DNA of 53,502 bases from a virus (taxonomy: Duplodnaviria > Caudoviricetes), in the IMG/VR virus record IMGVR_UViG_3300018432_000016, positions 1-53,502 of that record; one strand, given 5' to 3'. The position numbers and the translations under genes are program-made. The notes beneath the pieces were generated by a model, which searched no databases, was not told the DNA's origin, and worked only from the letters and a program-made list of their open reading frames with translations. Of the stretch, positions 18,932-40,080 are shown piece after piece (the stretch's first letter is position 1; each line of letters begins with the position of its first letter).

Positions 18932-19009
18932 CACCCGTTCGGGGGACGCGACACGACACGCGGCGCGGCGGTACTTGCCCCTCCCTCAATACCCGTGTAC
19001 AAATCTCTT
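18932..19009 (+). promoter_or_regulatory. Class-1 leaderless promoter cassette, copy A
   Basis: CACCCGTTCGGG..GACACGACACG..GTACTTGCCCC..TACCCGTG-TACAAA-N6-ATG. Confidence 0.75.
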
Positions 19010-19213: not shown

Positions 19214-19344
19214 CCGAACCCGCCCGGCCGCTCCGGGCGTAACAAATCGAGCGGGGGGACTGGCCGCCCCCGAGACTAGCGGCCCTCACTCTTACGGGGG
19301 GGCATAGTGCCCCCCGGGTAAAGTTCCCACGCCTAGGAGCCGAT

Positions 19345-19641
19345 GTGTCATTCATGAGCAACCGCCCCCGTATCACTGCCGCCGCGATCCGCGACGCCGC
19401 GACCCGCCTCGCCGGGACGGTCGTCCTCGACCTCGCCGACCTGTCCGTCGGGCCGGCCCTGTACCTGCCCCGCCTGGAGGCGTTCGCGTCGATCGACGGC
19501 GAGGACCTCGGCGTCGACGACGGGACCCTCGTCGTCCTCGTGTTCCCCGGCGAGGCGCGGGACCTGATCGAGGAGCACGGCACGCCCGGCCGGGCGGCCG
19601 AGGTCCGTACCCGCGAGCTTCGCGCGGCCGGTGTGCTGTGA
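19345..19641 (+). CDS. Hypothetical protein
   Basis: CCCACGCCT-AGGAG upstream of GTG. Confidence 0.7.
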   Translation: MSFMSNRPRITAAAIRDAATRLAGTVVLDLADLSVGPALYLPRLEAFASIDGEDLGVDDGTLVVLVFPGEARDLIEEHGTPGRAAEVRTRELRAAGVL

Positions 19642-20342
19642 GCGTCCTCGCCGAGGTCGTGGACCTCGCCGCCGTCCGGGGCGCGCACGCCCGCGCCATC
19701 CCCGTCGAGCAGTACGTCGCCCCCCTCACGCTCGACGAGATTGACGCCGAGGTCGAGGCGATCCGCGCCGAACTCGTCCGCCCGTTGCAGCGCCTCGCCC
19801 GGTTGCGGGCGGCCGGCGCGCATCTCACGGCCGGATTCTCGACGTGGCATGAGGCGGTCGAGGCGTGGCTCGGGGACCTCCAGTCGCTCCGCCTCCAGGG
19901 CTCCCCGGAGGCGGTCGCCGAACGTGAGGCGCTCGTGTGGTCGATCCGGGAGACCGGGGCGGCGACGCGGGCGATCCGGGAGCGGCTCGGCGTGTCCGCG
20001 TACGCGGTGAACGAGGCGCTGCGGAAGCTCGACCCGGCGCCGGAGCGAGTGGAGGGCGCCGACGGCCGGTCCCGGTCGTCGAGGACGGGCCGGCAGCAGC
20101 CGGTCGAGGTGCTGCCGGCGCCGACGGGCCGCGTGTGGCAGGTGGCGGCGGAGTGGCTGCGTCGCCACCCGGGCGGGTTGACGCTCGTGGAGTTGGCGCG
20201 GGTAGCGGGCTGGACGGAGGGCAAGGCGTCCGGCGCCCTGTCCGACCTTGTGCGGGTGCGCGGGTTGGCGGTCCGCACGGAGGAGCGGCGGGACGGGCAG
20301 CGTGTCCACGTTCACGCGGTCGCCGGGGAGGTGACGGCGTGA
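19638..20342 (+). CDS. Dual HTH / winged-helix DNA-binding protein
   Basis: GAATRAIRERLGVSAYAVNEAL, VEGADGR, GLTLVELARVAGWTEGKASGALSDL. Confidence 0.75.
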   Translation: MSVLAEVVDLAAVRGAHARAIPVEQYVAPLTLDEIDAEVEAIRAELVRPLQRLARLRAAGAHLTAGFSTWHEAVEAWLGDLQSLRLQGSPEAVAEREALVWSIRETGAATRAIRERLGVSAYAVNEALRKLDPAPERVEGADGRSRSSRTGRQQPVEVLPAPTGRVWQVAAEWLRRHPGGLTLVELARVAGWTEGKASGALSDLVRVRGLAVRTEERRDGQRVHVHAVAGEVTA

Positions 20343-20539
20343 CCGTGGAGCAGCCCCGGGACGCCCTCGGGCAGTTCGCGTCGCGGGAGTGCCCGACGAC
20401 GTACCGGCTCCTCGCCTCCGTGCGGCCCGTGGACGAGCCCCGGGCGCGTCCGGGCGGCGGGTGGTCGGTGGAGGCGCCGAGGTGCCCTCACGGGCATTTC
20501 GCGCGGTGGGCGGCGGTGAACTGCCGGCCGTGCCGTTAG
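20339..20539 (+). CDS. Small Cys/His protein
   Basis: GTGA overlap; QPRDALGQF...CPHGH...CRPC. Confidence 0.55.
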   Translation: MTVEQPRDALGQFASRECPTTYRLLASVRPVDEPRARPGGGWSVEAPRCPHGHFARWAAVNCRPCR

Positions 20540-24885: not shown

Positions 24886-26844
24886 TCAGGCGGCGAGGAG
24901 TGCGGCGGTGTCGCGGGTGCCGGACACCATGCCGAGCGGCCGGGTCGTGATGACGCCCCGGATGGCCTCGACGCCCCGGTGTGCCACGCCCTCCCACGAC
25001 TCGGAGAACGTCTTGTACTCGTTGCGCTGGTTCAGCGTGGAGTCGCGGACGACGCCGAGGTCGAGGGTTCCGCCGTCGAGGTGCAGCATGTCGCCCTCGA
25101 CCCACAGGTTGGCCTCGATCTTGGCGGGGAACGCGGCCACGGCGCCGGCGGGGGTGAACGCCCCGTACGCCTGCGCGGGGATACCGCCGGTGGGGATGAC
25201 GCCGGCGGCGGCGGCGCGGGCCGGCAGCCCGTCCAGGTGCCATGTGATGTTGACGCCCCGGCGCTGGAACCACCCGTTGATGGTGGCGTCGGCGACGTTG
25301 AGCGCCTCCAGCTCCCCGGCCATGCCCCGCGTGAGGTCGGCGCGGAGCAGGTCGCGGACCCACTGCGGCAGCACCATGCGGAGGGCGACGGCGTCGTCGA
25401 GGCGGTAGAACGACCGGTACTGCGCGAGCAGGTGGTCGAGGAATGTCAGCAGGTCGCGGGTCGCCCCGAGGACCTCCCCGCCGGTGACGGTGGTCGACAG
25501 TGCGCCGAGCTGCGCGAGCAGCCGGTTCTCGGCGATGCGGGCGTGCGCGATCTGCGCGGCGGTGATGTTGGCGGCGGTGCCTTCCGGGTCGAACCGGGCG
25601 GAGGCGTTGCGGAACAGCAGGCACAAGGTGATGGCCTCGACGTACGCCTCGACCTCGCCGGGGCACAGCACCTCTAGGCATGGCTTCGTCGGCCCGGAGT
25701 ACACGCCGTCGACGGTGTTCGCCGGGTCGCCGGCCTCCTCGTCGTCGGCGAGGGTCCAGAATCCGACGGCGCCGGCGAGGTCACCGAACGACAGGTGCTC
25801 GCGCCAGCGGACGCCGCCACGCTCGGCGCCGAAGTTCGCGAGCGCGTCCCGGATGGGCCGGGCGGTGGAGCCGAGGACGGGCACGTCGTACAGGGACTCG
25901 ATGGGTCCGCACAGCCCGCCGGCGGCGACGATGGCGCCGTTCGACGCGGCGTACTCGCCGGCGGCGCGGAGCGCGTCCCGGGAGGTGGCGGCGGCCACGA
26001 TGGGCGTGTTCCGGTCGACGGAGTTCTCGCGGAGCATGCGCTCCTCGGGGAACGAGGTCCGGATGGTGGCGACGGGGACGTGCTCCCCGTCGGCGCCGGT
26101 GCCGTGTCCTCGGCGGATCGAGTCGATGCGCAGACCGAACGCGTCGCCGAGCTGCCGGGCGGATTCGATCACCCCACCGGAGTCGAGGCCGACGGCCTGG
26201 AGTCCGGCGGCGGCGACGAGTGCGTTCGACGCGCGGGGCGCCGTGTAGGCGGGTGCCTGCCCGGTACGGGAGGCGGGGGCGGTGCCGGAGCCCATGCCGC
26301 CGGAGGCGCCGGGGCGGGGGAGGGTGGTCGCGCGGCGGCGGGTGCCGGAGGCGGCGACCGGTTCGGGCTGCTGCTGCTGCGCGGGCTCGGCGGGTTCCTC
26401 GTCGGTGTTGCTGTCGCCGGTGTTGTCGCCGTCCTCGTCGTTCTCCTCGTCCTCCGGGCCGTCGGCGGGCCGCTGGAGGCGCTGGAGGGCGGCGGAGGCG
26501 GCGTCGCGGCGGGCGGTCTCCTCCTCCTCGATCTGCTGGAGCCGGCCCTCGGCGACCTCGACGGCGTCGCCGAGGGAGGTGATCCGCTCGATCGTCTCGG
26601 AGGTGACGGTGGCAACGTCGATGCCCTCGGCCTCGGCGCGGGCGGCCTCGACGACGGCGTCGAGGGCCTCGGCGTCGAGGGTGCCGAGGTACTCCTCGAT
26701 CTGCTGCCGGGTGAGGGGCTCGGCGCCGTCGGGCACGTCGAGGAAGGCGAGTGGCGACTCGGGGGCGTCGGCGACGAGCGCCAGCAGCAGACCGGAGTCG
26801 CTCCAGCGGGCGCGGGCGTTCGGGCGGTTCGGGCGGTGTGACAC
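24886..26844 (-). CDS. Major capsid (hexamer) protein with N-terminal scaffold-like region
   Basis: Acidic/coiled-coil N-terminus; AAGGLCGP..LYD, RGGVRW, KPCLEVLCP, LDLGVVRDSTLNQRNEY..FSE. Confidence 0.9.
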   Translation of the reverse strand: MSHRPNRPNARARWSDSGLLLALVADAPESPLAFLDVPDGAEPLTRQQIEEYLGTLDAEALDAVVEAARAEAEGIDVATVTSETIERITSLGDAVEVAEGRLQQIEEEETARRDAASAALQRLQRPADGPEDEENDEDGDNTGDSNTDEEPAEPAQQQQPEPVAASGTRRRATTLPRPGASGGMGSGTAPASRTGQAPAYTAPRASNALVAAAGLQAVGLDSGGVIESARQLGDAFGLRIDSIRRGHGTGADGEHVPVATIRTSFPEERMLRENSVDRNTPIVAAATSRDALRAAGEYAASNGAIVAAGGLCGPIESLYDVPVLGSTARPIRDALANFGAERGGVRWREHLSFGDLAGAVGFWTLADDEEAGDPANTVDGVYSGPTKPCLEVLCPGEVEAYVEAITLCLLFRNASARFDPEGTAANITAAQIAHARIAENRLLAQLGALSTTVTGGEVLGATRDLLTFLDHLLAQYRSFYRLDDAVALRMVLPQWVRDLLRADLTRGMAGELEALNVADATINGWFQRRGVNITWHLDGLPARAAAAGVIPTGGIPAQAYGAFTPAGAVAAFPAKIEANLWVEGDMLHLDGGTLDLGVVRDSTLNQRNEYKTFSESWEGVAHRGVEAIRGVITTRPLGMVSGTRDTAALLAA

Positions 26845-26981
26845 GGGTTGCCCCCTCCAGGGGATCGCGGACAGGACGGACGGTGCGTCGTCTCTGCGAG
26901 CGGTACCCCTCGCGCCCTATGGGCGGGGGGCGGGGGAGCGGGCCACTAGGTAGCGCGACGCCCCCCTGCTCGTACGGACGG

Positions 26982-27026
26982 ACCGTAGAACAGGGGGGCG
27001 GGTGCGCGTGCGGAGTTGCGGCGGAT
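26982..27026 (-). promoter_or_regulatory. Putative late promoter ATCCGCCGCAACTCCGCACGC-N18-TACGGT
   Basis: Exact 21-bp copy at 39704-39724 with identical spacing to a TAnnnT box. Confidence 0.7.
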
Positions 27027-27220
27027 CAGCGGCGGGGCGGTCCCCACGAGCGGGCGTCGACGAGTTGCTCGCGGACTTTCCGGACCGCCCGGTCGAGGGC
27101 GGCGCGTTCGCGGCCGGTGCGCTCGCCGTGCCCCTCGGCGCGGTCGTCGAGGTTCTCTCGGCGCTCGGCGATCGCGGAGGCGAGGGCGTGCCACTCGTTC
27201 GCCGTGAGCGATGCGCTCAC
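27026..27220 (-). CDS. Hypothetical protein
   Basis: GTGA overlap; helical 64 aa. Confidence 0.55.
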   Translation of the reverse strand: MSASLTANEWHALASAIAERRENLDDRAEGHGERTGRERAALDRAVRKVREQLVDARSWGPPRR

Positions 27221-27471
27221 CGGTCGGCCCATGCGTCGGCGTCCTCGTCGAGGGCACGCTCGACCTCGCACGTCGAGCAGTCGCAGTCGTCCTCGCAGTC
27301 GTCGCCCTCGACCGCGCCGCACTCGTCACACCGGTCGGGGCCGGCGACGGCGGAGTCGTCGGGTGTCGCCCGGTGCGAGTGACTCGTGCCGGTCATGTGC
27401 CACCATCCGGTGCCCTCACAGCGCTTAATGGTGGCGGCGCACACGCCGCAGGTGGACAGGCGGGCGGTCAT
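27217..27471 (-). CDS. Cys-rich acidic small protein
   Basis: CGVC...WWH...H; CDEC...CEDDCDCSTC. Confidence 0.6.
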   Translation of the reverse strand: MTARLSTCGVCAATIKRCEGTGWWHMTGTSHSHRATPDDSAVAGPDRCDECGAVEGDDCEDDCDCSTCEVERALDEDADAWADR

Positions 27472-27683
27472 CAGTACCCCCGGAAGGCGTTGGGCGGGCG
27501 GTGGCTGCTCGGGCGCTTGACGACGGTCTCCCGGGCGAGGCGAAGCTCCTCGACGTAGTGCCCGTGGAGGGCGGCGGCGACGTGGTGCCGAACGTCGTCG
27601 CGGACGCGGGCCGGGTCGACGCCGTATTCGGCGGCCCACGCCTCCTCGTCAATATCGAGGGACAGGGTCAGGGCGACGCGCAT
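27471..27683 (-). CDS. Hypothetical protein
   Basis: 70 aa; LDIDEEAWAAEYGV...VRDDVR. Confidence 0.65.
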   Translation of the reverse strand: MRVALTLSLDIDEEAWAAEYGVDPARVRDDVRHHVAAALHGHYVEELRLARETVVKRPSSHRPPNAFRGY

Positions 27684-27686
27684 CAG

Positions 27687-27854
27687 TCAGACCTCCAGGG
27701 CGAGGGGGGCGACGGTGATCGAGTCGACGCGGAGCAGTTCGACGCCGTACTCGGCGACGAGGTCGAGCTGCTGCCCGTCCTCCTCGACCGAGGTCGGGAT
27801 AAGGGCGAGCTGCTGCCCGTCGGCGAGGCGGCGGGGGCGGGTGGAGCGGGACAC
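27687..27854 (-). CDS. 55-aa peptide with tandem QQLAL/QQLDL motifs
   Basis: Not in ORF track; CCCACGCCT-GGAGG upstream of GTG; VSRSTRPRRLADGQQLALIPTSVEEDGQQLDLVAEYGVELLRVDSITVAPLALEV. Confidence 0.6.
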   Translation of the reverse strand: MSRSTRPRRLADGQQLALIPTSVEEDGQQLDLVAEYGVELLRVDSITVAPLALEV

Positions 27855-27880
27855 GGGGACCTCCAGGCGTGGGAACGGGG

Positions 27881-27908
27881 CGGGGGCGCCGGGTCAGGGG
27901 CGCCCCCG
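27881..27908 (-). terminator. Hairpin closing cassette B
   Basis: CGGGGGCGCC...GGCGCCCCCG. Confidence 0.55.
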
Positions 27909-27914
27909 GGGGGA

Positions 27915-28118
27915 TCAGACGAAGTCAGGGTGTCCGGCGGCGTGCTTGGCGCCCTCGGCCTGCGCCTTGCCCTTGGCGACCTTGACGGCGGCGGGGAGGT
28001 AGGCGAACCGGACGCCGAGGTAACCGCAGGAGCAGACGGCCCGCATGGCCTTGCCTCCGCCGTTGCAGACGACGATGGTGCGGACGGTGTGGGCGGCGGG
28101 GGTGCTCGTCGTGTTCAT
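27915..28118 (-). CDS. Small Zn-finger-like protein (CxC...HxxxH)
   Basis: AVCSCGY...KHAAGH; leaderless ATG after cassette B. Confidence 0.7.
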   Translation of the reverse strand: MNTTSTPAAHTVRTIVVCNGGGKAMRAVCSCGYLGVRFAYLPAAVKVAKGKAQAEGAKHAAGHPDFV

Positions 28119-28195
28119 GGGATGAATATATACACGGGTATTACCCGGGGGGAAGTACCTCGGGGGCGTGTCGTGTTTTTCTCACCCGAACGGGT
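28119..28195 (-). promoter_or_regulatory. Class-1 leaderless promoter cassette, copy B
   Basis: ACCCGTTCGGGTGA..ACACGACACG..GGTACTTCCCCCC..TACCCGTGTA-TATATT-N6-ATG. Confidence 0.8.
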
Positions 28196-28694
28196 CGCCC
28201 GGCCGGGTGAGGAGCCGGGCCTCCAGCTCCGGCCGGCACACCGGGCAGGCGCGACGATGCCCCCGCGCCTTTAGTTGCCTCTCCCGGGTGCGGTCACCGG
28301 TCCAGGTGCGGGCCAGGCGCCACCCGATACCGGCTTTCGCAACATGCCGGGGCAGGTTCGCGCCGGTGCCGGCCGCGTGGTGCGCGAGCCGGTTCCCGAG
28401 GTTGCCGGGGCTGGCCCACCCGAGGTAGTGGAGGGCGTGCCCGAACGGCTCGTCGAAGTGGAGCAGGTAGATCGTGCCGGGCCACCCGCGTTCGACGACG
28501 AGCGGGTTCTCGATGACCTGCCCCGGTATGTCGGGCCGGAGGTCCGGGCCGGGTTGCCCGAGGGGCGGGTGACCGGCGCCGTTGCAGCGGAGCCCGTGCC
28601 ACTCCCCGCCCGTGCGGACGCCGTGGTGCCACACGAGCCCGCGCCGGGTCTGCGCGCACGAGCGGCGGCAGACCCGGCAGCGGACCCGGGTCAC
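28182..28694 (-). CDS. GIY-YIG family nuclease with N-terminal Zn finger
   Basis: TIYLLHF...HYLGWA...NRLAHHAAGTGA...RERQLK...CPVC; N-terminal CRVC...HH...C. Confidence 0.8.
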   Translation of the reverse strand: MTRVRCRVCRRSCAQTRRGLVWHHGVRTGGEWHGLRCNGAGHPPLGQPGPDLRPDIPGQVIENPLVVERGWPGTIYLLHFDEPFGHALHYLGWASPGNLGNRLAHHAAGTGANLPRHVAKAGIGWRLARTWTGDRTRERQLKARGHRRACPVCRPELEARLLTRPGDPFG

Positions 28695-29002
28695 GGCCGG
28701 CGGACCGGGTGCAGAGTCCACCCGGCGTCGTCGAGCAGCTCGACGAGGAGGTGCGCCTCGCCGGCGATCTTCCCCTGCCGCTCGTCGACCTCGACGAGCA
28801 CGTCGTCGAGCGCCTCGATCCGTTCGGCGCGGTCGACCTCGGACTCCTCGACGATGCCGGCGGCGACGCGGAGCCGCTGGACCTCCTCGACGAGCTGCCG
28901 GACGAGGTCCTCGTCGGAGACGAGGCAGCGGGGCTCGTCGCCGTCGTCGTGGGCGAGGGTGAGACAGGCGAGTTCCCGGGTCGTCCCGGAGATGACGCTC
29001 AC
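28691..29002 (-). CDS. Hypothetical protein
   Basis: GTGA overlaps; acidic helical. Confidence 0.6.
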   Translation of the reverse strand: MSVISGTTRELACLTLAHDDGDEPRCLVSDEDLVRQLVEEVQRLRVAAGIVEESEVDRAERIEALDDVLVEVDERQGKIAGEAHLLVELLDDAGWTLHPVRRP

Positions 29003-29286
29003 AGCTCGACAACCTGTTCGGTCACGGTCGCGAGGTACCCGTGCTCGCGCATGCGGCGGAGGAGGCGGGCGTCGTCGGGCCACTCCGAGGAGGGGCCGAG
29101 CCCGTACCGGAGCCCGTCCTCGGCGTCCCACGCGTCGCGGGCGGCGGCGGCGAGGTGCTCGTCGGCCTTGCGCCGGTTCGCGAACAGGGCGAACACGAGG
29201 GGGGCGGCCGGGTGCGGCTGCCCGTCGACGGTGAGGGCGGCGCCGTTGCGGTTCGCGAGGGTCACGGCGTAGACGGTGGCGATCAC
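28999..29286 (-). CDS. Hypothetical protein
   Basis: GTGA overlaps; VIATVYAVTL... Confidence 0.6.
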   Translation of the reverse strand: MIATVYAVTLANRNGAALTVDGQPHPAAPLVFALFANRRKADEHLAAAARDAWDAEDGLRYGLGPSSEWPDDARLLRRMREHGYLATVTEQVVEL

Positions 29287-29426
29287 GCGTCGAGCCCGGC
29301 GAGGTCGCGCCACGCGGCGGCGTTGGCGCGGAGGGTGGCGGCGTAGGCGGGTTCGGTGCGGTCGGCGGCGCGGGCCTGCCGGTCGCATCGGGTCGCGGCG
29401 AGCGCGGCCCGTTGGGTGCGGGTCAT
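29283..29426 (-). CDS. Small hypothetical protein (47 aa)
   Basis: ATG with AGGAGG SD and CCCACGCC; MTRTQRAALAATRCDRQARAAD... Confidence 0.55.
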   Translation of the reverse strand: MTRTQRAALAATRCDRQARAADRTEPAYAATLRANAAAWRDLAGLDA

Positions 29427-29439
29427 GGGTCCTCCTGTA

Positions 29440-29475
29440 GGCGTGGGAGTGTGCCCCCCCTTTATACACGGGGAA
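29440..29475 (-). promoter_or_regulatory. Class-2-like promoter CCCGTG-TATAAA-GGGGGGG...CCCACGCC
   Basis: Same layout as 5579 and 9314. Confidence 0.6.
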
Positions 29476-29477
29476 CT

Positions 29478-29768
29478 CTAGTCGTGGGGGATGACATTCC
29501 GGGGAGAGGCAGGCGACGCGGGTCGAGGGGTGAGGCTCGACCCGCGTCGCCACCGGGGCGGGGCGCCTGCACTGGCCTGCGGCAGCTCCCGGGCCGGGTA
29601 CTTGTGCGACACGTCGTACGGGTCGCCGTGCCGGATGGTAGCGCCGAGCATGAGCGCGGCCGGCAACCCGACGACGAGCAGCGGGGCGGCGGCGAGGACC
29701 GGGTGCGCGCCCCACAGCAGGGCGGCCAGCAGCCCGGCGGCGAGGAGTGCGGCGGCGTTGCCTCTCAC
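29478..29768 (-). CDS. Small membrane protein coupled to FtsK (Spd-like candidate)
   Basis: GTGA overlap with FtsK stop; two hydrophobic helices. Confidence 0.55.
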   Translation of the reverse strand: MRGNAAALLAAGLLAALLWGAHPVLAAAPLLVVGLPAALMLGATIRHGDPYDVSHKYPARELPQASAGAPPRWRRGSSLTPRPASPASPRNVIPHD

Positions 29769-31258
29769 GCCGGGATCCGCGTCGACGGGGCGTACAGCGG
29801 CCCGGCGATGACGGGGGCGGGCGCGTACCGGTCGGCGAGGACGGCGAGGGCGTCGTCGTCGACGTACGCGAACCGGCAACGCACCGGCTCCGACCCGCCC
29901 TCGGCGAGCACGTAGCCGACGCCGGGCAGCTCGGGGGCGATCTGCTCCGTGCGGGCGCCCCGGGCTCGGGCGCCGGCGCCGAGGATGAGGTCGCCGACGG
30001 GTTCGACGGTGCGCAGCCCGACCCGGTAGGAGATGAGGTCGCGGACGCCGAGGGTCTCTTTGCGGGGGTCCTGGGTGGCGACGACGACGGACACGGCGGC
30101 GGCCCGCCCTTGGGACAGGAGCAGGGACAGGGCGTTCTCGACGCGGGTGCGGATGGCGGGCGGGGCGTACGCGGTGATCGCCGACACCTCGTCGACGATG
30201 ACGAGGACCAGGGGTTCGGCGGCGGTCGGCGTGTGTGTGCGGACCGGGCCGCCGGGGCGGCGCGGGTTCCGCATGGCGAGGAGGCGGGTTTGCATGGCGG
30301 CGACGGCCTCGTCGAGGAGGTCGGCGATCGAGGTCTGCCACGGTGCCCCGCCGGCGGCCTGCCCCCCATACACGAACCGGTCGAACAGTGGCGCCCCGCC
30401 GGACAGTTCGGCCCCGCCCTTGGGGTCGACGGCCCACACGGACACGAGCCCGGCGCGGATGGCCGGCCCGAGCCCGGCGAGGAGGGACCAGACGACGGAG
30501 CCTTTTCCGGCGCCGGTGACGCCGGCGACGAGGAGGTGTGAGCCGAGGACGGGGAGGGTCAACGCGTGCCCGTCCTCCCGGACACCGACGGGCACTGCGC
30601 GGAGGTCGACCTCCTCGGACACCGGGGGGACGGGCACGGGTTGGTCGAGGGGGTCGCGGACGAGGCACAGCAGGTCCACCTCGTGGGGGCGGCCGGGCAC
30701 GGCGCGGGCTCGCGCGTCGAGGACGCCGAACGACTGCGCGAGCCGGTCCCCGGCTTGGCTCCAGTCGACGACGGTCTGCCCCGGCAGCATGCGGACCCGG
30801 ACCCGGTCGACCTCGCGGGTCGAGGTGACGGCGAGCAGGTCGGGCAGGTGCTCGCGTTTGCCTCGGATGGTGAGCCCGGCGGTCGAGGTGGCGGGCTGCC
30901 AGCGGCGCCGGTAGACGAGCGCCCGGCGGGTGCGTGCGCGGCAGCGTTGCCACACCCACCGGTCGAACCCGGGCGGGGAGGTCACTCTCCAGGCGACGAG
31001 AATCGTCACGACCGTTATTGCGCCTGCGGCGAACGGTGTCCACCCGTACCGGACGTGCGTCCAGGCGACGGCGGCGTGCCCGCCGAGGACGGCCACCCGG
31101 CGTGGCCGGCGGAGCAGCCACCCGAGCAGCCGCAGCAGCCACCCGAGCACCCACGCGAGGAGGAACAGCCCGGCGAACCGGCGGGCGAACCGCTGGAGAC
31201 TCCAGTCGACGACCCGCTGCCCGAGGGATGGGCGGAGCGAGTCGCCGAGGAGCCTCAC
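29765..31258 (-). CDS. FtsK/SpoIIIE DNA translocase, AICE/plasmid TraB-like
   Basis: N-terminal TM helices; SHLLVAGVTGAGKGS Walker A, VDPKGGAEL, VIVDEV Walker B, QGRAAAV..ATQDPRKE. Confidence 0.9.
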   Translation of the reverse strand: MRLLGDSLRPSLGQRVVDWSLQRFARRFAGLFLLAWVLGWLLRLLGWLLRRPRRVAVLGGHAAVAWTHVRYGWTPFAAGAITVVTILVAWRVTSPPGFDRWVWQRCRARTRRALVYRRRWQPATSTAGLTIRGKREHLPDLLAVTSTREVDRVRVRMLPGQTVVDWSQAGDRLAQSFGVLDARARAVPGRPHEVDLLCLVRDPLDQPVPVPPVSEEVDLRAVPVGVREDGHALTLPVLGSHLLVAGVTGAGKGSVVWSLLAGLGPAIRAGLVSVWAVDPKGGAELSGGAPLFDRFVYGGQAAGGAPWQTSIADLLDEAVAAMQTRLLAMRNPRRPGGPVRTHTPTAAEPLVLVIVDEVSAITAYAPPAIRTRVENALSLLLSQGRAAAVSVVVATQDPRKETLGVRDLISYRVGLRTVEPVGDLILGAGARARGARTEQIAPELPGVGYVLAEGGSEPVRCRFAYVDDDALAVLADRYAPAPVIAGPLYAPSTRIPA

Positions 31259-31288
31259 GGGGGGGACAGTAGCCCCCCGCCCTAGAGG

Positions 31289-32131
31289 TCAGGCGGTGAG
31301 TTCGACGGTTGCCGGCTGGACGGTCGACCCGTTCCACACCCCGTCGAGGGTGAGCGGCTGCTCGGTCGTCCCGTTCCACAGTGACCACGCCTCGGTGGGC
31401 GGCGTGTAGTCGGCGACGGTGATGGCGTAGCGGTCCTGCACGTAGGAATGCCAGACGGCCCGTTCGGCGACGGTGAGCGGGTGATCCCAGATGCAGAACT
31501 CCCACATGCGCGCGGGTAGACAGTTGCTGCTGCCTGAGTTGGACAGGAACAGCCGGAAAGTGGCGGCGGCGCCCGTGTTCGGGGGCAGGTCGGTGGTCGC
31601 GGCGGTCGCACCGTCGCTGGTGCCGTTGTGGAACACCTCCGTCGTGAACCTGTCGGCGGCGGCGGTGATGACGTTGGGGACACCTGTGCTGATCGCGTCG
31701 CGGGTGTCGCTCCCGGCGGCGGCGCCGCCTTCCCGGTAGTTGGTGAGGCTGACGCTGGTCGTCGTGGGCACGTTCAGGATGAATCGGCGCGCCGCGACGG
31801 TGGCGCTGTAGACGGATGCGATGCCGCGCGGCGTGGTGCCGCTGGTGCGCTTCCACACGACGCCGACCGTGTAGTCGTCGGGCATGTCGAGGGAACCGGC
31901 CAGGGACACCCCCGACGTGGCGGTCGTGCTGACACAGGGGATGCCGTTGCCCTCACCGGCCGTGGTGGTGCGGACCGGTGCGCTCGCGGCGGGGGACGAG
32001 GGGGCGAGCGACTGTCCGGCCACCCGGTCGACCCACGTCGGGATGGTGTCCCCGTCGGCCTTGCCCGCCGTGGGGTCGTCGGACCGCCACCAGCGGAACA
32101 GGCCCGGAACGTCGGCGGGGGTGCGGGTCAT
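31289..32131 (-). CDS. LamG/concanavalin-like virion protein
   Basis: GLFRWWRSDD...DGDTIPTWVDR...EFCIWDHPLTVAER...YVQDRY. Confidence 0.65.
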   Translation of the reverse strand: MTRTPADVPGLFRWWRSDDPTAGKADGDTIPTWVDRVAGQSLAPSSPAASAPVRTTTAGEGNGIPCVSTTATSGVSLAGSLDMPDDYTVGVVWKRTSGTTPRGIASVYSATVAARRFILNVPTTTSVSLTNYREGGAAAGSDTRDAISTGVPNVITAAADRFTTEVFHNGTSDGATAATTDLPPNTGAAATFRLFLSNSGSSNCLPARMWEFCIWDHPLTVAERAVWHSYVQDRYAITVADYTPPTEAWSLWNGTTEQPLTLDGVWNGSTVQPATVELTA

Positions 32132-33477
32132 GCCGTGCGCAGGATGACGGTGCCGGCGGGGGTGCCGCCCGGCACGGCCGCCCCGGCGGCGAGGACGAGG
32201 AGCGGTTTCCCGGTCAGGTCGGCGTAGGCGCCGGTCGTGGCGACCGTGGCAAGTCCGGTGACCGTGGAGGCGGCCTGGGTGCCGGTGTGGTTGGCGCGGG
32301 CCTTCGCCGCCGTGTCCCCGGTGTCGACGTAGTCCTTGCGGGTGAGTTCGGATGCCTGTGCGGGCGGAGTTGCCGTAACAGTCATCCGTTGAGCGGCGAT
32401 TGCCGCGCCTCCTGCGGACCGGCGGACGAGGGTGTCGCTCGTTGCGCTGCTGGTTGCCCCGTCGAGGAGGGTGCGTAGGGCGGCGGGCAGCGTCTTGTTC
32501 GTGGTGCCGTCGGTGATGGTGTCCGCGTCCTGGGTGCCGGTGTGCGTGGCCCGGTCCCGCAGGGCGGCGTCGGTGGCGTTGGCGGTGGCCGAGGTCGTGA
32601 TGGTGATGGTGTCGGCAGCGTCGTTGACGAGTACCGAGATGTTGCCGAGGCCGACCATCGCCGCGCCGATGGTGTCCCGGATGGTTTCCGGGTCGATCGT
32701 CTGCCCGGTCCAGTCGATGGTGAGCGTGCCGGCCGCGTCGTCGTAAGAAATGTCGAGGTCGGCGCCGACGGCCTGCAACATGCCGCCGACGGTGTCCTCG
32801 ATGTACTCGCGGAGGTCGGTGATGCTCGCCGTCGTCTGTACGCCGGTGTGCGTCTCCCGGTCGCGGAGGGCGGCGTCGGTGGCGTTGGCGGTGGCCCCGG
32901 CGGCGACCCCGGCGAGCTTGGTGCGCTCCTCCGGGGTGATGTAGCCGGGGGTGAGGGCGTCGAGGGCGTCGGCGAGTTCGTCGTCGTCGACGTAGCCGGA
33001 CAGGTCGACGGGCGGTATGGCGGCGATCGCCGCGTCGAGTTGCTCGTCGGTCACATGCCCGGACAGGTCGACGCCGGGTATGGCGGCGATCGCGGCGGCG
33101 AGCTCCTCGTCGGTCACGTACTCGTCGTGCGCGTGCCCCTCGGGGGCGGCGGGGGCGCCGCCGGTCGCCGGCTCCAGGGTGTCGAAGTCGACCTCGTCCG
33201 GGTCTTCGTCGGCGACGAGGAACGTCCGGTCCCGGGGGCCGCCCGGGACGCGGTCCGTCCAGCGCATCCGGTACAGACCTCGGACGAGCCCGTCGACGCG
33301 GGCGGTCCCGTCGGAGCCGATGCGGACCCGCTCCGACCCGCCGACGACGCCGCCTGCCGTGTCGATGGGGCGGTCGAGGGTCAGGGCGCCGACGAGCCCG
33401 ACGGCGGCCGGCCGGCCGGTCGGGGACCGGTACGGCCCGAACGTGAGGGCGAACACGCCCGGGGCGGGTTCGGTCAC
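32128..33477 (-). CDS. Repeat-rich virion fibre/decoration protein
   Basis: 3x (DLSG)Y/HVTDEELAAAI and ATANATDAALRDRxTHTGxQ repeats; LATVATTGAYADLTGKP. Confidence 0.7.
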   Translation of the reverse strand: MTEPAPGVFALTFGPYRSPTGRPAAVGLVGALTLDRPIDTAGGVVGGSERVRIGSDGTARVDGLVRGLYRMRWTDRVPGGPRDRTFLVADEDPDEVDFDTLEPATGGAPAAPEGHAHDEYVTDEELAAAIAAIPGVDLSGHVTDEQLDAAIAAIPPVDLSGYVDDDELADALDALTPGYITPEERTKLAGVAAGATANATDAALRDRETHTGVQTTASITDLREYIEDTVGGMLQAVGADLDISYDDAAGTLTIDWTGQTIDPETIRDTIGAAMVGLGNISVLVNDAADTITITTSATANATDAALRDRATHTGTQDADTITDGTTNKTLPAALRTLLDGATSSATSDTLVRRSAGGAAIAAQRMTVTATPPAQASELTRKDYVDTGDTAAKARANHTGTQAASTVTGLATVATTGAYADLTGKPLLVLAAGAAVPGGTPAGTVILRTA

Positions 33478-35051
33478 GGCCGGCGGAGGCGGGCGAGACC
33501 GGCGCGGGCGGCGGCGGCCAGGACGGGGCGCATGCGGTCGTCGACGACGCGGCGGACCGCGTCCTCGTCGTGCCCGTGCCCCCGAGCCCGGCGGGTGAGG
33601 GGGGCGGACCCGGCGGCGAGGAGGACCCGCGCCCCGGATGCGGTGATGTGCGCGCGGCCCCGGATCGGGAAACCGGGCGTATTCACGCACAGGGCGGCGA
33701 CGAGCCGGACGTTCACGTCGCCCGGGTTGGCCCGCCAGTCCCCGGAGATTGGGTGTCGGCCGAACTCCTCGATCTGCTGCCGGGTCAGGTGGGGTCGCAT
33801 CGCCCCGGCGAACCACACGCCGAAATCGTCCTCGCCGACGATCACGTCCGCGTACGCCGACGAGGTCGAGTCGTAGTGCGCGAGCGCGGGCATGACGCCG
33901 TGATCCATGTTCATATCGTGGCCGCCCCCGAACGACAGGACACCGGTCGGCACCTCCTCGCCCTCCTCCGTGAACGTGGAGCCCTGCGAGGTGAACGTCC
34001 GGTACCCGGCCTCCCCGAGGCGGGGGGCGTACACCTCACGGTCGAGGATGCCGGCGTGCGGGACGCCCCACTGTGCGATGTACCCCCACACTTGCCCGGT
34101 GGGGACACCGTTCGGGCGGCGGCCGAGGTAGACGTGCCGGCCAGGATCGGGAACGTCGACGCGGGCGAACCATGCGCGCGGCGGCAGGACGGGGGCGATC
34201 GTTTCCGTGTCGGCGGCGACGGAGGCGAGGAGCGCCTGCCGGCCCCGGGCGGGCTCCAGGATGCGCAACGCGGAGGAGGCGACGACGGGCAGCGCCTCGG
34301 CGGGCTGCTCGGCGGGGGCGATCCCGGCCTCCTCGGCGCCGAGCCCGTCGTCGAGGACGATGTACGCGGACGGGAACGCGGCGAACGGGGTAACGGTGCA
34401 CTGTGCGATCGACCCTTGGGTTACGCGCATCCGGACCCGCTCCGGGAACCCGTCCTCGTCCTCCTCCAGCACGTCGATTTCGGCGGCGACCTCGCCGAGG
34501 TCGACGGACACGCCCCGGAGGACCTGCTCGCGCACGTAGTCGAGGGTCGCTCGGGAGCCGGGCTGGTCATCGTTGGGGACGAACCATCCGGTCGCACGCC
34601 ACCCCCACACGCCCTCCCCGAACGGCTGCCCGGTCTCCCGGTTGATTTCGGCGGCGAAGTCGAGGCGTTCCATCGTGTCCAGGCGACCGCACACGATCGC
34701 GGCGGAGTGACCTTCGAACCCGCCGTCCGGGTTGCGGAGCATCGCCATAAGCGACTGAGGCAGGTCACGGCGGCCGAGGCTGCCGGGCTCGATGTACCGG
34801 TCGTCGGAGGTCGTCCAGCCCTCCAGCACGACGGCGGGGATGGTGAACGGGACCCCGTTCTCCGGTGGGGCGAGCTGCTGGTCGAGGGGGGTGCGTTCGG
34901 CGGGCGGGGGGGCCTGCTCCTCGACCTCGACGACGGCCGGCGCCTCGTCCTCGACCGGGGGGGCGGTGGCGACGAGCGCGGCCAGCTCGCCGCCGGTCGT
35001 CCAGCGGGCGAGCGACTGCTCGGTTCCGAGCGGTCGGCGGGTGGCGGGCAT
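33474..35051 (-). CDS. Capsid maturation protease (cluster-B-like)
   Basis: GHSAAIVCGRLD, LRGVSVD, PFAAF; C-domain GYIAQWGVPH, HYDSTS, GEDDFGVWFAG, SGDWR, VNTPGFP. Confidence 0.85.
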   Translation of the reverse strand: MPATRRPLGTEQSLARWTTGGELAALVATAPPVEDEAPAVVEVEEQAPPPAERTPLDQQLAPPENGVPFTIPAVVLEGWTTSDDRYIEPGSLGRRDLPQSLMAMLRNPDGGFEGHSAAIVCGRLDTMERLDFAAEINRETGQPFGEGVWGWRATGWFVPNDDQPGSRATLDYVREQVLRGVSVDLGEVAAEIDVLEEDEDGFPERVRMRVTQGSIAQCTVTPFAAFPSAYIVLDDGLGAEEAGIAPAEQPAEALPVVASSALRILEPARGRQALLASVAADTETIAPVLPPRAWFARVDVPDPGRHVYLGRRPNGVPTGQVWGYIAQWGVPHAGILDREVYAPRLGEAGYRTFTSQGSTFTEEGEEVPTGVLSFGGGHDMNMDHGVMPALAHYDSTSSAYADVIVGEDDFGVWFAGAMRPHLTRQQIEEFGRHPISGDWRANPGDVNVRLVAALCVNTPGFPIRGRAHITASGARVLLAAGSAPLTRRARGHGHDEDAVRRVVDDRMRPVLAAAARAGLARLRRP

Positions 35052-35317: not shown

Positions 35318-35538
35318 GTTCCGTCCCTCGGCATCCCGTCGCGTTCGGCGCCGCACTGGCAGCAGAACCACGCGATCATGGCGTCGGCCGGGTGCCACCA
35401 GTGCCCCCCGCCTCGGCGGCAGGCTCGGCGGGTTCTCCACCGGTGCCACGGGCTCGTGTCGACGAGGGGGCGGACGGGAAACTCGTACCCGCCGACGACG
35501 GGTGGTCGCACGGTGGCGTGGTGCGTCGGGTGGGTCAT
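35314..35538 (-). CDS. Small Cys/His protein
   Basis: CRRGGGHWW...CCQCG; 4-nt overlaps. Confidence 0.55.
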   Translation of the reverse strand: MTHPTHHATVRPPVVGGYEFPVRPLVDTSPWHRWRTRRACRRGGGHWWHPADAMIAWFCCQCGAERDGMPRDGT

Positions 35539-39377: not shown

Positions 39378-39671
39378 TCACTCCCACGAGGACAGGAGCC
39401 CGGAGACGGCGCTCCAGGCGAGGACGGCGCCGGCCGGTGCGGCGACGGCCGGGACGGCGGCGACGAGCCCGGCCCACCCGGCGGCGACCCACACGGACAC
39501 GCACCACGGGCAGGTGACGAAGTAAGCGAGGCGGCCCTCGGCGTCGTCGGCGAGCTGCTCGCGGACGGGCCGGGTTATCTCGTCCTCGACGAGGAGTCGG
39601 GTCAGCCGGAATGTTGCGAGGGCACCGACGGCGAGCACGACCGGATCACGGAGCACGCTCGGGTTCCCCAC
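39378..39671 (-). CDS. DUF1360-family membrane protein
   Basis: LATFRLTRLLVEDEITRPVR...TCPWCVSVW. Confidence 0.8.
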   Translation of the reverse strand: MGNPSVLRDPVVLAVGALATFRLTRLLVEDEITRPVREQLADDAEGRLAYFVTCPWCVSVWVAAGWAGLVAAVPAVAAPAGAVLAWSAVSGLLSSWE

Positions 39672-39679
39672 GCGGGGGG

Positions 39680-39724
39680 ACGTTACCGAGGGGGCACCGG
39701 GGGGCGTGCGGAGTTGCGGCGGAT
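39680..39724 (-). promoter_or_regulatory. Putative late promoter ATCCGCCGCAACTCCGCACGC-N18-TAACGT
   Basis: Exact 21-bp repeat of 27006-27026; heads the DUF1360-portal operon. Confidence 0.7.
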
Positions 39725-39728
39725 ACGG

Positions 39729-39763
39729 CGGAGCCCCCGGCCTCGTCGAGGGCGGGGGCTCCG
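39729..39763 (-). terminator. Hairpin closing cassette C
   Basis: CGGAGCCCCCG...CGGGGGCTCCG; core nearly identical to the hairpin at 5643. Confidence 0.65.
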
Positions 39764-39775
39764 GGGCCGAGCGGG

Positions 39776-40003
39776 TCAGGCGGTGAATGGGTCCGCCTGC
39801 ACTGCGGCGCCGAGGTCGGCGGCGGCGCGGGAGAGATTGCGCTCCGCCTCGGCCATGTCGCGGCGGATACGCGCGACGCTGCGAGCGTGGGTGGTACGGG
39901 CCAGCTCGTGGGGCAGGCTCACCTCGATGAGCCACGTCAGGTAGCGAATACTCTCGCGGGCTTCGTCGGCGGTGGGGGCGGCGTGGGCGTTCGTCGTGTT
40001 CAT
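39776..40003 (-). CDS. Small helical hypothetical protein
   Basis: Leaderless ATG after cassette C; MNTTNAHAAPT start similar to the 28118 gene. Confidence 0.7.
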   Translation of the reverse strand: MNTTNAHAAPTADEARESIRYLTWLIEVSLPHELARTTHARSVARIRRDMAEAERNLSRAAADLGAAVQADPFTA

Positions 40004-40080
40004 GCCATGATTATATGCACGGGTATTGCCGGGGGGGGGTACCCGGCATGCGACGCGCCGGCGTGTCGCCCTATCGGGGG
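40004..40080 (-). promoter_or_regulatory. Class-1 leaderless promoter cassette, copy C
   Basis: CCCGATAGGGCGACACG..GGTACCCCCCCC..ATACCCGTGCA-TATAAT-N6-ATG. Confidence 0.75.

What the first reader, a model, noticed from the sequence alone, without database searches (positions are those of the whole stretch)
29478..31271. Conjugative-type FtsK/TraB translocase plus membrane partner inside a virion head module: candidate phage-plasmid spreading by both particles and DNA transfer
Seen: a 497-aa FtsK/SpoIIIE ATPase (N-terminal TM helices, GVTGAGKGS, DPKGG, VIVDE, QGRAA..ATQ). It appears intact, has its own leaderless promoter (TACTGT-N7-GTG) and is translationally coupled to a 2-TM protein. It sits between the capsid protease/fibre genes and the major capsid gene, and it ends right after the ATPase with no gamma wHTH domain. 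Known: single TraB-type FtsK proteins plus small Spd membrane proteins mediate dsDNA conjugation and intramycelial spread of actinomycete plasmids and AICEs. Inference: with no integrase and an initiator-plus-loader replicon, this phage could persist extrachromosomally and pump its genome through septa or into neighbouring hyphae, bypassing receptor-level defence.
Basis: partly seen in the sequence, partly recalled or inferred. Interest (0 to 1): 0.88.

Follow-up and report, generated by a model that had tools for sequence, protein, structure and literature searches.

The report
Conjugation-type DNA pump inside a phage
A soil actinobacterial phage carries an intact membrane-anchored DNA pump whose closest relatives drive conjugation of small integrative elements, always paired with a tiny membrane protein, which makes particle-free spread of phage DNA a testable but unproven idea.

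Summary
Window 29765-31258 (-) encodes an intact 497-aa FtsK/SpoIIIE ATPase: two N-terminal membrane helices, an FtsK alpha-beta motor, no gamma domain. It overlaps (GTGA) a conserved 2-TM gene at 29478-29768. The window is a complete 53.5-kb, 73% GC tailed phage without integrase, ParA/ParB or XRE repressor.

The protein belongs to the pMR2 clade of AICE conjugative Tra proteins (40-57% identity). Of 80 chromosomal homologues, 70 lie beside pMR2-like rep and/or int. Only tra was captured; no other AICE or plasmid gene matches the window.

Six related phage contigs keep protease, FtsK, coupled 2-TM gene, small genes, capsid gene, plus an invariant TA.T.TCC element 7 nt before the start codon. 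The same FtsK clade also sits beside an integrase in a prophage (L205) and among recombination genes in another phage (L006). So it is a portable accessory cassette, not a head-assembly gene. Three distant prophage relatives lack it.

Best reading (about 0.4): a membrane dsDNA pump that moves phage DNA into adjoining cells. FtsK-like genes in actinophages are already annotated; the AICE-Tra ancestry, the lineage-restricted partner and the separate control element are the new points.

The parts
31259..31278 (-). G6-CTACTGT-C7 hairpin directly before the FtsK start codon. Its loop holds the -10-like TACTGT (31266-31271), 7 nt before the GTG: a candidate leaderless promoter and/or insulator/terminator of upstream transcription.
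   Evidence: Sequence read. TA.T.TCC and its distance to the start codon are invariant in 7 of 7 clade loci, while the arms change between G-run/C-run and C-run/G-run. Pair count: 63% of cells paired, 5 of 7 pairs changed on both sides, and 24-25 of 500 shuffles reach the observed values. This is suggestive only.
29765..31258 (-). 497-aa membrane-anchored FtsK/SpoIIIE-family ATPase of the pMR2 clade of AICE Tra proteins
29478..29768 (-). 96-aa 2-TM protein whose start overlaps the FtsK stop (GTGA). It carries the conserved motif GLPAxLM...R(H)GDPYD after TM2. The family is restricted to this phage lineage.
   Evidence: present in 6 of 6 loci. 35 clusters, none on a contig longer than 55,222 bases. 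13 representatives out of 1.84 billion. No Pfam, PHROG, NCBIfam or PADLOC family.
29454..29473 (-). Conserved intergenic element CCGTGTATAAA plus a G-run just after the 2-TM stop. It is promoter-like for the next small genes and closes the two-gene cassette.
   Evidence: (conserved in 6 of 6 clade loci)
29283..29426 (-). 47-aa ORF with an AGGAGG ribosome-binding site; its stop overlaps the start of the next gene
27026..29286 (-). Run of eight small soluble ORFs (55-170 aa) of unknown function between the cassette and the capsid gene. Several are conserved in clade relatives. An early-type leaderless promoter motif lies at 28127-28137.
31289..33477 (-). LamG-like gene (31289-32131) and fibre/decoration-like gene (32128-33477), inserted between protease and FtsK. 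The fibre gene occurs only in the window and L110; both genes are absent in L002, L003, L004, L005 and L103.
33474..35051 (-). Prohead protease (upstream flank)
   Evidence: phrog_859, phrog_18402
24886..26844 (-). Major capsid protein with an N-terminal extension of about 220 aa (downstream flank)
19354..20539 (+). Opposite-strand island. Its 234-aa double-HTH protein (19638-20342) has a homologue directly beside the FtsK cassette in prophage L205, so a functional link is possible.
   Evidence: (36% identity over 208 aa, E 1e-17)

Best explanation
Shown: a lineage of high-GC actinobacterial siphoviruses captured the tra gene, and only that gene, of a pMR2-type actinomycete integrative and conjugative element. 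The phage copy keeps the full architecture: a two-helix membrane anchor plus an FtsK alpha-beta motor with Walker B and arginine-finger motifs. It is under purifying selection. It is always followed by a translationally coupled, lineage-specific 2-TM protein, and preceded by its own conserved -10-like/hairpin element.

Inferred: the pair forms a membrane-embedded ATP-driven dsDNA pump that is expressed as its own unit rather than as part of the capsid operon.

Most likely use (speculative): late in infection, or after induction in temperate carriers such as L205, it pushes replicated phage DNA through the membrane or septum into an adjoining cell or compartment. The genome would then spread without a particle, as AICE Tra and Streptomyces TraB/Spd proteins do for their own elements.
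For: Identity. Identity is 40.5% to pMR2 Tra over 454 aa, E 6e-74, and 45-57% to chromosomal copies. Of 80 such loci, 70 have a pMR2-like rep and/or int next to tra, and 56 have both. Of 80 metagenome loci, 38 have rep and 27 have int. pMR2 itself has the canonical reg-tra-spd-rep-xis-int layout.

Tree. All 9 phage-context and 7 unknown-context rows form one group (support 85/68). That group lies inside a starred clade (100/99) together with AICE rows L104, L020, L105, L107, L108 and L037.

Integrity. There are no stops in 6 clade orthologues; dN/dS is 0.30-0.64. The fold is an FtsK motor. The membrane helices are kept even in the shortened variants.

Cassette. The GTGA-coupled 2-TM gene is present in 6 of 6 loci. 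A coupled 2-TM ORF also follows the FtsK of prophage L205. A 5-TM ORF follows that of L016, and an annotated membrane protein follows that of phage Gilgamesh. In AICEs, tra likewise overlaps the next gene in 126 of 145 loci, and 25 of these next genes are hydrophobic, including DUF2637-like ones.

Own control. The TA.T.TCC element is invariant in 7 of 7 loci.

Precedent for the idea. Thoma et al. [quoted passage not shown]
Against: There is no functional data of any kind. No clt-like repeat array was found near the gene. The protein has no DNA-recognition domain, so how it would select phage DNA is unknown.

The host is unknown. Many pMR2-type AICEs sit in non-mycelial genera such as Cellulomonas, Nocardioides and Mycobacterium, so 'hyphae' is an assumption.

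A sub-lineage (L004, L005, L110; 408-415 aa) has lost about residues 95-197, the helix and small domain before the RecA core. This argues against a strictly canonical hexameric pump in all members.

The gene evolves faster than its structural neighbours: dN 0.32 against 0.11-0.17, and omega 0.52 against 0.20-0.40. The 2-TM gene is only weakly constrained (omega 0.81).

Three distant prophage relatives with the same protease-capsid layout lack the gene, so it is dispensable.

In L205 the cassette sits beside the integrase and XRE-like genes. That is a typical place for exclusion or defence genes expressed from a prophage.

The Walker A motif reads GKGS, with Gly where FtsK has Ser. This holds for the whole family, and its effect is unknown.
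Confidence: 0.4

Rival explanations
1. Exclusion or competition module. The membrane ATPase plus 2-TM partner protects the infected or lysogenic cell against incoming DNA (superinfecting phages, AICEs or plasmids), or interferes with resident AICE transfer. It does not move the phage's own genome.
For: In prophage L205 the cassette lies between a tyrosine integrase/XRE-like gene and a divergently read regulator cluster. The cassette is accessory and portable between phage genome contexts. It has its own control element. It evolves fast. FtsK-like ATPases occur in defence systems: PADLOC mad8 E 4e-12 and SspH E 9e-6, but these are generic domain matches.
Against: The PADLOC matches are far weaker than those to AICE Tra, and no partner gene of those systems was matched among the 8 window proteins scanned. 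No exclusion role is known to me for any TraB/Tra-type protein (recalled, not searched). In the window the phage shows no lysogeny genes, so a prophage-protective role would not apply here.
Confidence: 0.2
2. Host-cell manipulation. The pump acts on host or phage DNA at division or sporulation septa. For example, it might keep phage DNA in, or move it into, daughter cells or spores, or disturb host FtsK-dependent segregation and development.
For: Papers on Streptomyces phages list FtsK-like genes among candidate manipulators of host development (PMC10117723 and PMC13587820, passages read). The fold is that of the septal translocase FtsK. The membrane anchor is conserved.
Against: The protein descends from conjugative Tra, not from chromosomal FtsK. 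It lacks the gamma domain that directs FtsK on the chromosome. The host and its life cycle are unknown.
Confidence: 0.15
3. One reading: the phage is a phage-plasmid that persists extrachromosomally and spreads both as particles and by conjugation.
For: There is no integrase. A putative initiator ORF (2565-3458, no family match) overlaps an IstB/DnaC-like loader (1786-2562). One ORF runs across the contig ends, consistent with a circular assembly. The tra homologue is present.
Against: No ParA (PF13614, PF01656), ParB or XRE-type HTH was found in six frames, while the control genomes rang. No AICE or plasmid rep, int, xis or Spd homologue is present. An initiator plus loader is ordinary for lytic and temperate phages. 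A circular assembly also arises from circular permutation or terminal redundancy. No FtsK more than 57% identical was found in one genome each of 185,579 species (best 80 of 543), so no carrier strain is in evidence.
Confidence: 0.08
4. A role in head assembly or DNA packaging, suggested by its place between protease and capsid genes.
For: The position is conserved in 7 clade loci and in the distant phage L016. In L014 an FtsK homologue lies directly before the large terminase gene.
Against: A standard large terminase is present at 46476-48326. The protein is membrane-anchored. The same FtsK clade sits outside head modules in L205 and L006. Distant relatives with the same head genes lack it. 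It has a separate control element.
Confidence: 0.03

Closest known systems
Tra of pMR2 (Micromonospora rosaria, NC_006910) and the 'pMR2 clade' of AICE Tra proteins defined by Ghinet et al. 2011 (PMC3218068, passages read)
   Same: The alignment spans nearly the full length, membrane anchor included (40.5% identity over 454 aa, E 6e-74). Size is similar (about 480-550 aa). There is no gamma/wHTH domain. The P-loop reads GKGS. The stop overlaps the next gene.
   Different: It sits in a tailed-phage genome with no int, xis, RepSA, regulator or Spd/DUF2637 neighbours. The coupled partner is a lineage-specific 2-TM protein. In the nearest AICEs examined the coupled partner is WhiB-like, and in Micromonospora AICEs it is DUF2637-like.
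TraB of Streptomyces plasmid pSVH1 with its Spd proteins (Thoma et al. 2015, PMC4447253, abstract and passages read)
   Same: A membrane-associated FtsK-like dsDNA translocase encoded next to small membrane proteins. This is the mechanistic model for particle-free DNA spread.
   Different: Identity is only 31% over 331 aa of the motor, E 3.5e-14. TraB has 772 aa with a C-terminal clt-recognition domain (per the paper) that is absent here. It has a canonical GKS P-loop. No SpdB2 homologue is in the window. No clt-like repeats were seen.
'FtsK-like DNA translocase' genes annotated in actinobacteriophages, e.g. Streptomyces phage Gilgamesh gp10; PHROG 1358
   Same: A phage-borne FtsK/SpoIIIE ATPase followed by an overlapping membrane-protein gene. 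It is classed as a moron or auxiliary gene. Function is unknown, and papers only speculate.
   Different: Identity is only 28% over half the protein, E 2e-6. Gilgamesh gp10 has 637 aa and lies in the left arm of a 129-kb genome. No phage in the 50,697-record collection has a closer copy: 6 records matched, none covering 80% of the query.
Chromosomal FtsK (PDB 2IUS, 2IUU, 6T8O)
   Same: Best structural match for the alpha-beta motor: Foldseek E about 1e-19 over about 380 aligned columns. The Walker B and QGRA/ATQ motifs align.
   Different: About 21-23% identity. There is no gamma domain. The N-terminus has two helices rather than a multi-span domain with a long linker. NCBIfam FtsK scores 13.8 bits against a cut-off of 1566.

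Membership tests
FtsK/SpoIIIE ATPase family (Pfam PF01580) | Profile match above the curated cut-off | tested here: met
   35.1 bits against a cut-off of 24, E 1.2e-8
FtsK/SpoIIIE ATPase family (Pfam PF01580) | RecA-type motor fold with Walker A, Walker B and the arginine-finger region | tested here: met
   AF2 model with pLDDT 84.7. The top 10 Foldseek hits are FtsK motor domains. VIVDE and QGRAA..ATQ are conserved. Walker A is the variant G-x-T-G-x-G-K-G-S, seen in 81 of 102 family sequences.
FtsK/SpoIIIE ATPase family (Pfam PF01580) | Hexameric ring that translocates dsDNA | not testable with these tools
   No oligomer was modelled and no biochemistry is available
pMR2-clade AICE Tra (Ghinet et al. 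2011) | Groups with pMR2 Tra and its AICE relatives in a phylogeny, apart from Streptomyces plasmid TraB | tested here: met
   Trees of 116 and 39 rows. The phage clade is nested among AICE rows. pSVH1 TraB is far outside, with an end branch of 6.65.
pMR2-clade AICE Tra (Ghinet et al. 2011) | Encoded in an element with integrase and RepSA-type replication initiator next to tra | tested here: not met
   PF00589 and PF00239 are absent in six frames. pMR2 int, xis, rep and DUF2637 find nothing in the window at E below 0.01.
pMR2-clade AICE Tra (Ghinet et al. 2011) | Mediates conjugative transfer of its own element | not testable with these tools
   Needs mating assays
Streptomyces TraB (pSVH1/pIJ101 type) | C-terminal wHTH that binds 8-bp repeats of a clt locus | tested here: not met
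   The protein ends about 19-25 residues after the motor, and residues 483-497 are disordered. No repeat array lies in 26800-33500.
Spd proteins (SpdB2 and others) as partner | Sequence relation of the 2-TM protein to a known Spd protein | tested here: not met
   No Pfam, PHROG or NCBIfam family. pSVH1 SpdB2 and pMR2 DUF2637 give no match in the window. Spd proteins are diverse, so an analogous role is not excluded.
Phage-plasmid | Plasmid-type maintenance genes (partition, plasmid replication) beside phage genes | tested here: not met
   ParA (PF13614, PF01656) and ParB (PF02195) are absent while the controls rang. No plasmid rep match.
Type VII secretion EccC/EssC | NCBIfam equivalog score; several tandem ATPase domains | tested here: not met
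   36.2 bits against a cut-off of 509 for EccCa, and 21.6 against 347 for EccCb. There is a single ATPase domain.
Known anti-phage defence systems (PADLOC) | Specific model match together with the system's partner genes | tested here: not met
   Only generic FtsK-domain matches: mad8 E 4e-12, SspH E 9e-6, HerA E 6e-4. The seven neighbouring proteins scanned have none.

The most novel reading that the evidence does not exclude
A clade of tailed phages, some apparently virulent and some temperate, has domesticated an AICE conjugation motor together with a new 2-TM partner. With it they pass naked phage genomes directly into neighbouring cells or compartments. This would be a second, particle-independent infection route that bypasses receptors and adsorption blocks. 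A stand-alone double-HTH protein (the window 19638-20342 family, adjacent to the cassette in L205) may supply the DNA recognition that the pump itself lacks.
Probability: 0.25. Interest if true: 0.9.

Novelty: new variant of a known kind. Interest (0 to 1): 0.55.

Why it matters
FtsK-like genes are routinely annotated in actinobacteriophages, but nobody knows what they do. This case ties one such family by sequence and phylogeny to conjugative AICE Tra proteins. It defines a compact cassette: control element, pump and coupled 2-TM partner. The cassette travels between unrelated phage genome contexts. One copy lies in a prophage of an isolate genome (L205), so deletion and transfer tests are feasible. 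If the pump moves phage DNA between cells, phage host range, plaque spread and receptor-based resistance in actinobacteria would need rethinking, and the line between phages and conjugative elements would blur. If it is an exclusion device, it would be a new use of a conjugation motor. te Poele et al. [quoted passage not shown] This finding qualifies that statement for the pMR2 clade.

Tried and rejected
Complex prediction of FtsK (alignment A1) with the 2-TM protein (A2): no verdict, score 0.00 against a mark of 0.32, and the controls were not run. It counts neither for nor against binding.

RNA evidence: one DNA run was listed, a soil metagenome that may be the source of the window; no RNA holder was listed.

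ESM Atlas look-up for the 2-TM protein: only unnamed clusters at scores of 0.88 or less, so no lead.

clt-like repeats: the repeat finder on 26800-33500 gave only low-identity, GC-rich chance families, apart from three 82-nt repeats inside the fibre gene.

The sigma-70 consensus scan found 0 promoters and 2 terminator-like sites against 1.5 expected. It is uninformative in a 73% GC genome.

The idea that the 2-TM protein is the holin was set aside. The CHAP endolysin is at 11708-12430. Other small membrane proteins lie beside a GDSL lipase at 39378-42362. The idea is not excluded.

Homology of the window 2-TM family to the 80-aa 2-TM ORF after the L205 FtsK: hhalign E 0.015 over 22 columns, probability 3%. 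I treat this as an analogous arrangement, not as shown homology.

Hairpin covariation before the FtsK start: 24-25 of 500 shuffles reach the observed values, and slid controls (-1, -2) give equal pairing because the arms are homopolymer runs. This is suggestive only.

Their context stays unknown.

Literature. Six searches found no paper that describes a pMR2-type or AICE-type Tra in a phage, or tests a phage FtsK-like gene.
Full report
THE WINDOW. The window is a whole IMG/VR virus record of 53,502 bases (CheckV 98% complete). It has 71-76% G+C, and nearly all genes are on the minus strand. One ORF runs from 567 through position 1 and continues from 53502 to a stop at 53311 (252 codons). The contig is therefore a closed assembly of a circular, or circularly permuted, genome.

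Family scans give the following map:
- large terminase, 46476-48326;
- portal, 35535-39374;
- prohead protease, 33474-35051;
- major capsid protein, 24886-26844;
- head-tail adaptor, major tail protein, tape measure (15356-17794) and minor tail proteins;
- CHAP endolysin, 11708-12430;
- SSB, 6157-6684; ERF recombinase, 8162-9085; IstB/DnaC-like loader, 1786-2562, overlapped by a 297-aa ORF with no family match.

Six-frame searches found no tyrosine or serine recombinase, ParB, ParA or XRE-type HTH, while the control genomes rang. No tRNA was found. No phage in GenBank is close at the DNA level. The capsid protein is at most 44% identical to those of Arthrobacter, Gordonia and Microbacterium phages. 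The only sequencing run that holds the region is a soil metagenome.

THE OBSERVATION. It is correct in every sequence detail. ORF 29765-31258 (-) encodes 497 aa with an FtsK_SpoIIIE Pfam match above cut-off and PHROG 'FtsK/SpoIIIE-like' matches. Hydropathy shows two membrane helices. The AlphaFold2 model (pLDDT 84.7) has four N-terminal helices, a small alpha/beta domain and a RecA-type core that ends at about residue 478, followed by a disordered tail. Its best structural matches are FtsK motor domains and the conjugation coupling protein TcpA. A profile alignment to Pseudomonas FtsK shows that the protein stops where the FtsK beta domain stops, so there is no gamma domain. It also shows that the P-loop reads GKGS where FtsK has GKS. 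That variant occurs in 81 of 102 family sequences examined.

The stop codon overlaps the GTG of a 96-aa ORF with two hydrophobic helices. Thirty bases separate the upstream LamG-like gene from the FtsK start. These bases hold GGGGGGCTACTGTCCCCCCC directly before the GTG.

WHAT FAMILY IT BELONGS TO. A word-indexed search of 5.8 billion proteins scored 8000 candidates and found 1810 relatives at E of 0.001 or less. In the plasmid collection the best compact hit is pMR2 of Micromonospora rosaria, at 41% identity over 80% of the query. pMR2 shows the textbook AICE layout of regulator, tra, small genes, DUF2637, rep, xis and int.

In one genome each of 185,579 species, 543 of 600 pattern hits encode a relative. 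Among the best 80 (38-57% identity), 62 have a pMR2-like rep, 64 a pMR2-like int, 70 either and 56 both, always just downstream of tra. Only one locus (L064) matches any other window ORF, and that ORF overlaps the SSB gene. Among the best 80 metagenome loci, many of them very short, 38 have rep and 27 have int.

Conversely, when all annotated pMR2 and pSVH1 proteins are run against the window, only Tra (40.5% identity, E 6e-74) and TraB (30.8%, E 3.5e-14) match. int, xis, rep, DUF2637 and SpdB2 do not. NCBIfam models for EccC, EssC, FtsK and TraD all score far below their cut-offs. The protein is thus a member, by descent, of what Ghinet et al. 2011 call the pMR2 clade of AICE Tra proteins (PMC3218068, passages read), but it is not in an AICE.

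RELATIVES IN PHAGES. Six other contigs carry the same arrangement: L002, L003, L004, L005 (the same contig as L106), L103 and L110. The order is portal, protease, FtsK (62-84% identical), coupled small ORF, small genes, capsid gene. Five of the six have FtsK directly after the protease. The window's fibre-like and LamG-like genes are a further insertion; only L110 shares the fibre gene.

All six full or partial orthologues are free of stops. Pairwise dN/dS is 0.30-0.64. Between the window and L005, omega is 0.52 for FtsK and 0.81 for the 2-TM gene, against 0.20-0.40 for five structural genes. dS is limited by the extreme GC3, so these ratios are inflated for all genes.

A sub-lineage (L004, L005, L110; proteins of 408-415 aa) has lost about residues 95-197 but keeps both membrane helices.

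The small ORF is a real gene. In 6 of 6 loci it starts 4 nt before the FtsK stop. It has two hydrophobic helices and an invariant G-L-P-A-x-L-M...R-x-G-D-P-Y-D block. Its family is tiny: 35 clusters in 5.8 billion proteins, none on a contig longer than 55,222 bases, and 13 representatives in 1.84 billion. It matches no library family.

OWN CONTROL ELEMENTS. The 45 bases before the FtsK start align in 7 of 7 clade loci. T-A-x-T-x-T-C-C is invariant, and its distance to the start codon is fixed at 7 nt after the hexamer. The flanking arms switch between G-run/C-run (window, L002) and C-run/G-run (L003, L004, L005, L110), which keeps a hairpin in 6 of the 7 by eye. The formal count is only suggestive: 63% of cells paired, and 24 of 500 shuffles are as high.

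Just after the 2-TM stop, a second conserved element (CCGTGTATAAA plus a G-run) is present in 6 of 6 loci. That motif has six copies in the window against 0.07 expected, all intergenic and all pointing at the next gene. Five of them share about 40 nt and place a TATATA-like box 6-8 nt before an ATG. This phage therefore appears to use leaderless promoters widely.

The FtsK/2-TM pair looks like a self-contained unit set into, but not part of, the capsid operon.

PHYLOGENY AND OTHER CONTEXTS. In a 116-row quick tree the window falls in a 100%-supported group of ten with the syntenic phage loci.

In a careful 39-row tree, all nine rows with a phage context and seven rows of unknown context form one group (support 85/68). 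The unknown-context rows come from contigs of up to 56 kb. No AICE row falls inside the group. The window clade of 11 rows has support 100/100, and L205 joins it at 91/89. This group sits inside a starred clade (100/99) with AICE rows L104, L020, L105, L107, L108 and L037, itself inside the wider AICE radiation. The root is a midpoint. Capture by a phage from an AICE is the reading suggested by nestedness; it is not proven.

The phage contexts differ:
- L205 is a prophage. It has a tyrosine integrase (PF00589, 56.5 bits), XRE-like genes, FtsK, an overlapping 80-aa 2-TM ORF, a homologue of the window's 234-aa double-HTH protein (36% identity, E 1e-17), and siphovirus tail genes.
- L006 has FtsK among RecE, RecT, methyltransferase and DnaB genes.
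- More distant FtsK homologues in other viral contigs lie before the terminase gene (L014), after a helicase gene (L010, L013), or among methyltransferase and ParB-like genes (L008).
- L016 is a distant phage (capsid 34% identical). It has a 647-aa FtsK between protease and capsid genes, followed by an overlapping 5-TM ORF. Its branch is long and its origin is unresolved.

In a sample of 401 actinomycete genomes, 12 matched the capsid protein. I fetched six regions. Three of them (L191, L195, L196) have both protease and capsid matches, and none of the three has an FtsK match. The gene is therefore accessory and portable.

WHAT IT MOST LIKELY DOES. Shown: descent from a conjugative dsDNA translocase, a retained membrane anchor and motor, purifying selection, an obligatory small membrane partner, and a separate conserved control element.

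Inferred: it still works as a membrane DNA pump.

Which DNA it moves, and in which direction, cannot be read from sequence. I rank the possibilities as follows:
- transfer of phage DNA to adjoining cells (about 0.4, including the identity layer);
- exclusion or competition (0.2);
- manipulation of host segregation or development (0.15);
- the phage-plasmid model (0.08);
- packaging (0.03).

The transfer idea has a printed precedent for SpdB2 homologues in phages phiC31 and VWB (PMC4447253, passage read). It is weakened by several points: there is no DNA-recognition domain and no clt-like site; a domain has been lost in one sub-lineage; the host is unknown; and the L205 cassette sits in a lysogeny-type neighbourhood.

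COMPARISON WITH WHAT IS KNOWN, AND NOVELTY. FtsK-like genes in actinophages are an established annotation, and recent phage papers mention them only as possible host-development modulators. Three things are new here. First, the assignment of one phage family to the AICE pMR2 Tra clade. Second, the definition of a conserved cassette with a lineage-restricted partner and its own control element. Third, the evidence that the cassette moves between phage genome contexts. I rate it a new variant of a known kind, of moderate interest. Interest would be high if particle-free spread were demonstrated.

Noticed in passing
window 18993-19003 (+), 28127-28137, 29461-29471, 40012-40022, 44763-44773, 45824-45834 (-): The motif CCGTG[TC]A[TC]A.A occurs 6 times against 0.07 expected. 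All copies are intergenic and point at the next gene. Five share about 40 nt (GGTACTT, C-run, GGGTAATACCCGTGTATATA, then 6-8 nt, then ATG). This looks like a family of leaderless promoters with an operator-like inverted repeat.
   Followed up: partly
window 1-567 and 53311-53502 (-): A single ORF of 252 codons runs across the two contig ends, so the 'linear' record is a closed assembly of a circular or circularly permuted genome.
   Followed up: partly
window 19354-20539 (+); L205 4626-5593 (-): The only multi-gene block on the opposite strand lies inside the tail module. Its 234-aa protein has two HTH regions (MarR_2 match). Its homologue lies directly beside the FtsK/2-TM cassette in prophage L205. 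It may be a regulator or DNA-recognition partner of the pump.
   Followed up: partly
L004, L005, L110 and proteins P0034, P0039, P0044, P0113: A sub-lineage of the phage FtsK is 408-415 aa long. It lacks about residues 95-197 of the window protein (the long helix and small domain before the RecA core) but keeps both membrane helices.
   Followed up: partly
window 32128-33477 (-) and 31289-32131 (-): The fibre/decoration-like gene has three 82-nt internal repeats (66-83% identical to the reference copy). A LamG-like gene (Laminin_G_3, 22.4 bits, below the 27.6 cut-off) follows it. Both are inserted between protease and FtsK; the fibre gene is shared only with L110.
   Followed up: no
window 39378-42362 (-): A GDSL-lipase-like gene (41319-42362) is followed by several small membrane proteins, one of them DUF1360. 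This block lies between terminase and portal, far from the CHAP endolysin at 11708-12430. It may be a second lysis-type cluster.
   Followed up: no
window 35535-39374 (-): The portal gene encodes 1279 aa, but the portal profile covers only residues 29-638. The C-terminal half has no family match.
   Followed up: no
window 24886-26844 (-): The major capsid protein has 652 aa. Phage capsid homologues align only from about residue 222-243 onward, which leaves an N-terminal extension that may act as a fused scaffold.
   Followed up: no
L020, L104, L107, L024, L025 and other AICE loci: In AICEs, tra overlaps the next gene in 126 of 145 loci. In the nearest relatives of the phage clade that next gene encodes a Cys-rich WhiB-like protein (a strict motif is met in 18 of 145). 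In Micromonospora AICEs it is a multi-TM DUF2637-like protein.
   Followed up: partly
L007 (IMG/VR contig): This 'viral' contig has tra followed by a pMR2-like rep and int, and its Tra is nearly identical to a Kribbella AICE copy. It is probably an AICE filed as a virus.
   Followed up: no
window, 25 G-run/C-run sites listed (e.g. 19296-19315, 27882-27907, 43531-43553, 51559-51582): Short hairpins made of a G-run and a C-run recur. 8 of the 12 G-then-C sites are intergenic. They may be terminators or RNA-stability elements in this high-GC phage.
   Followed up: no
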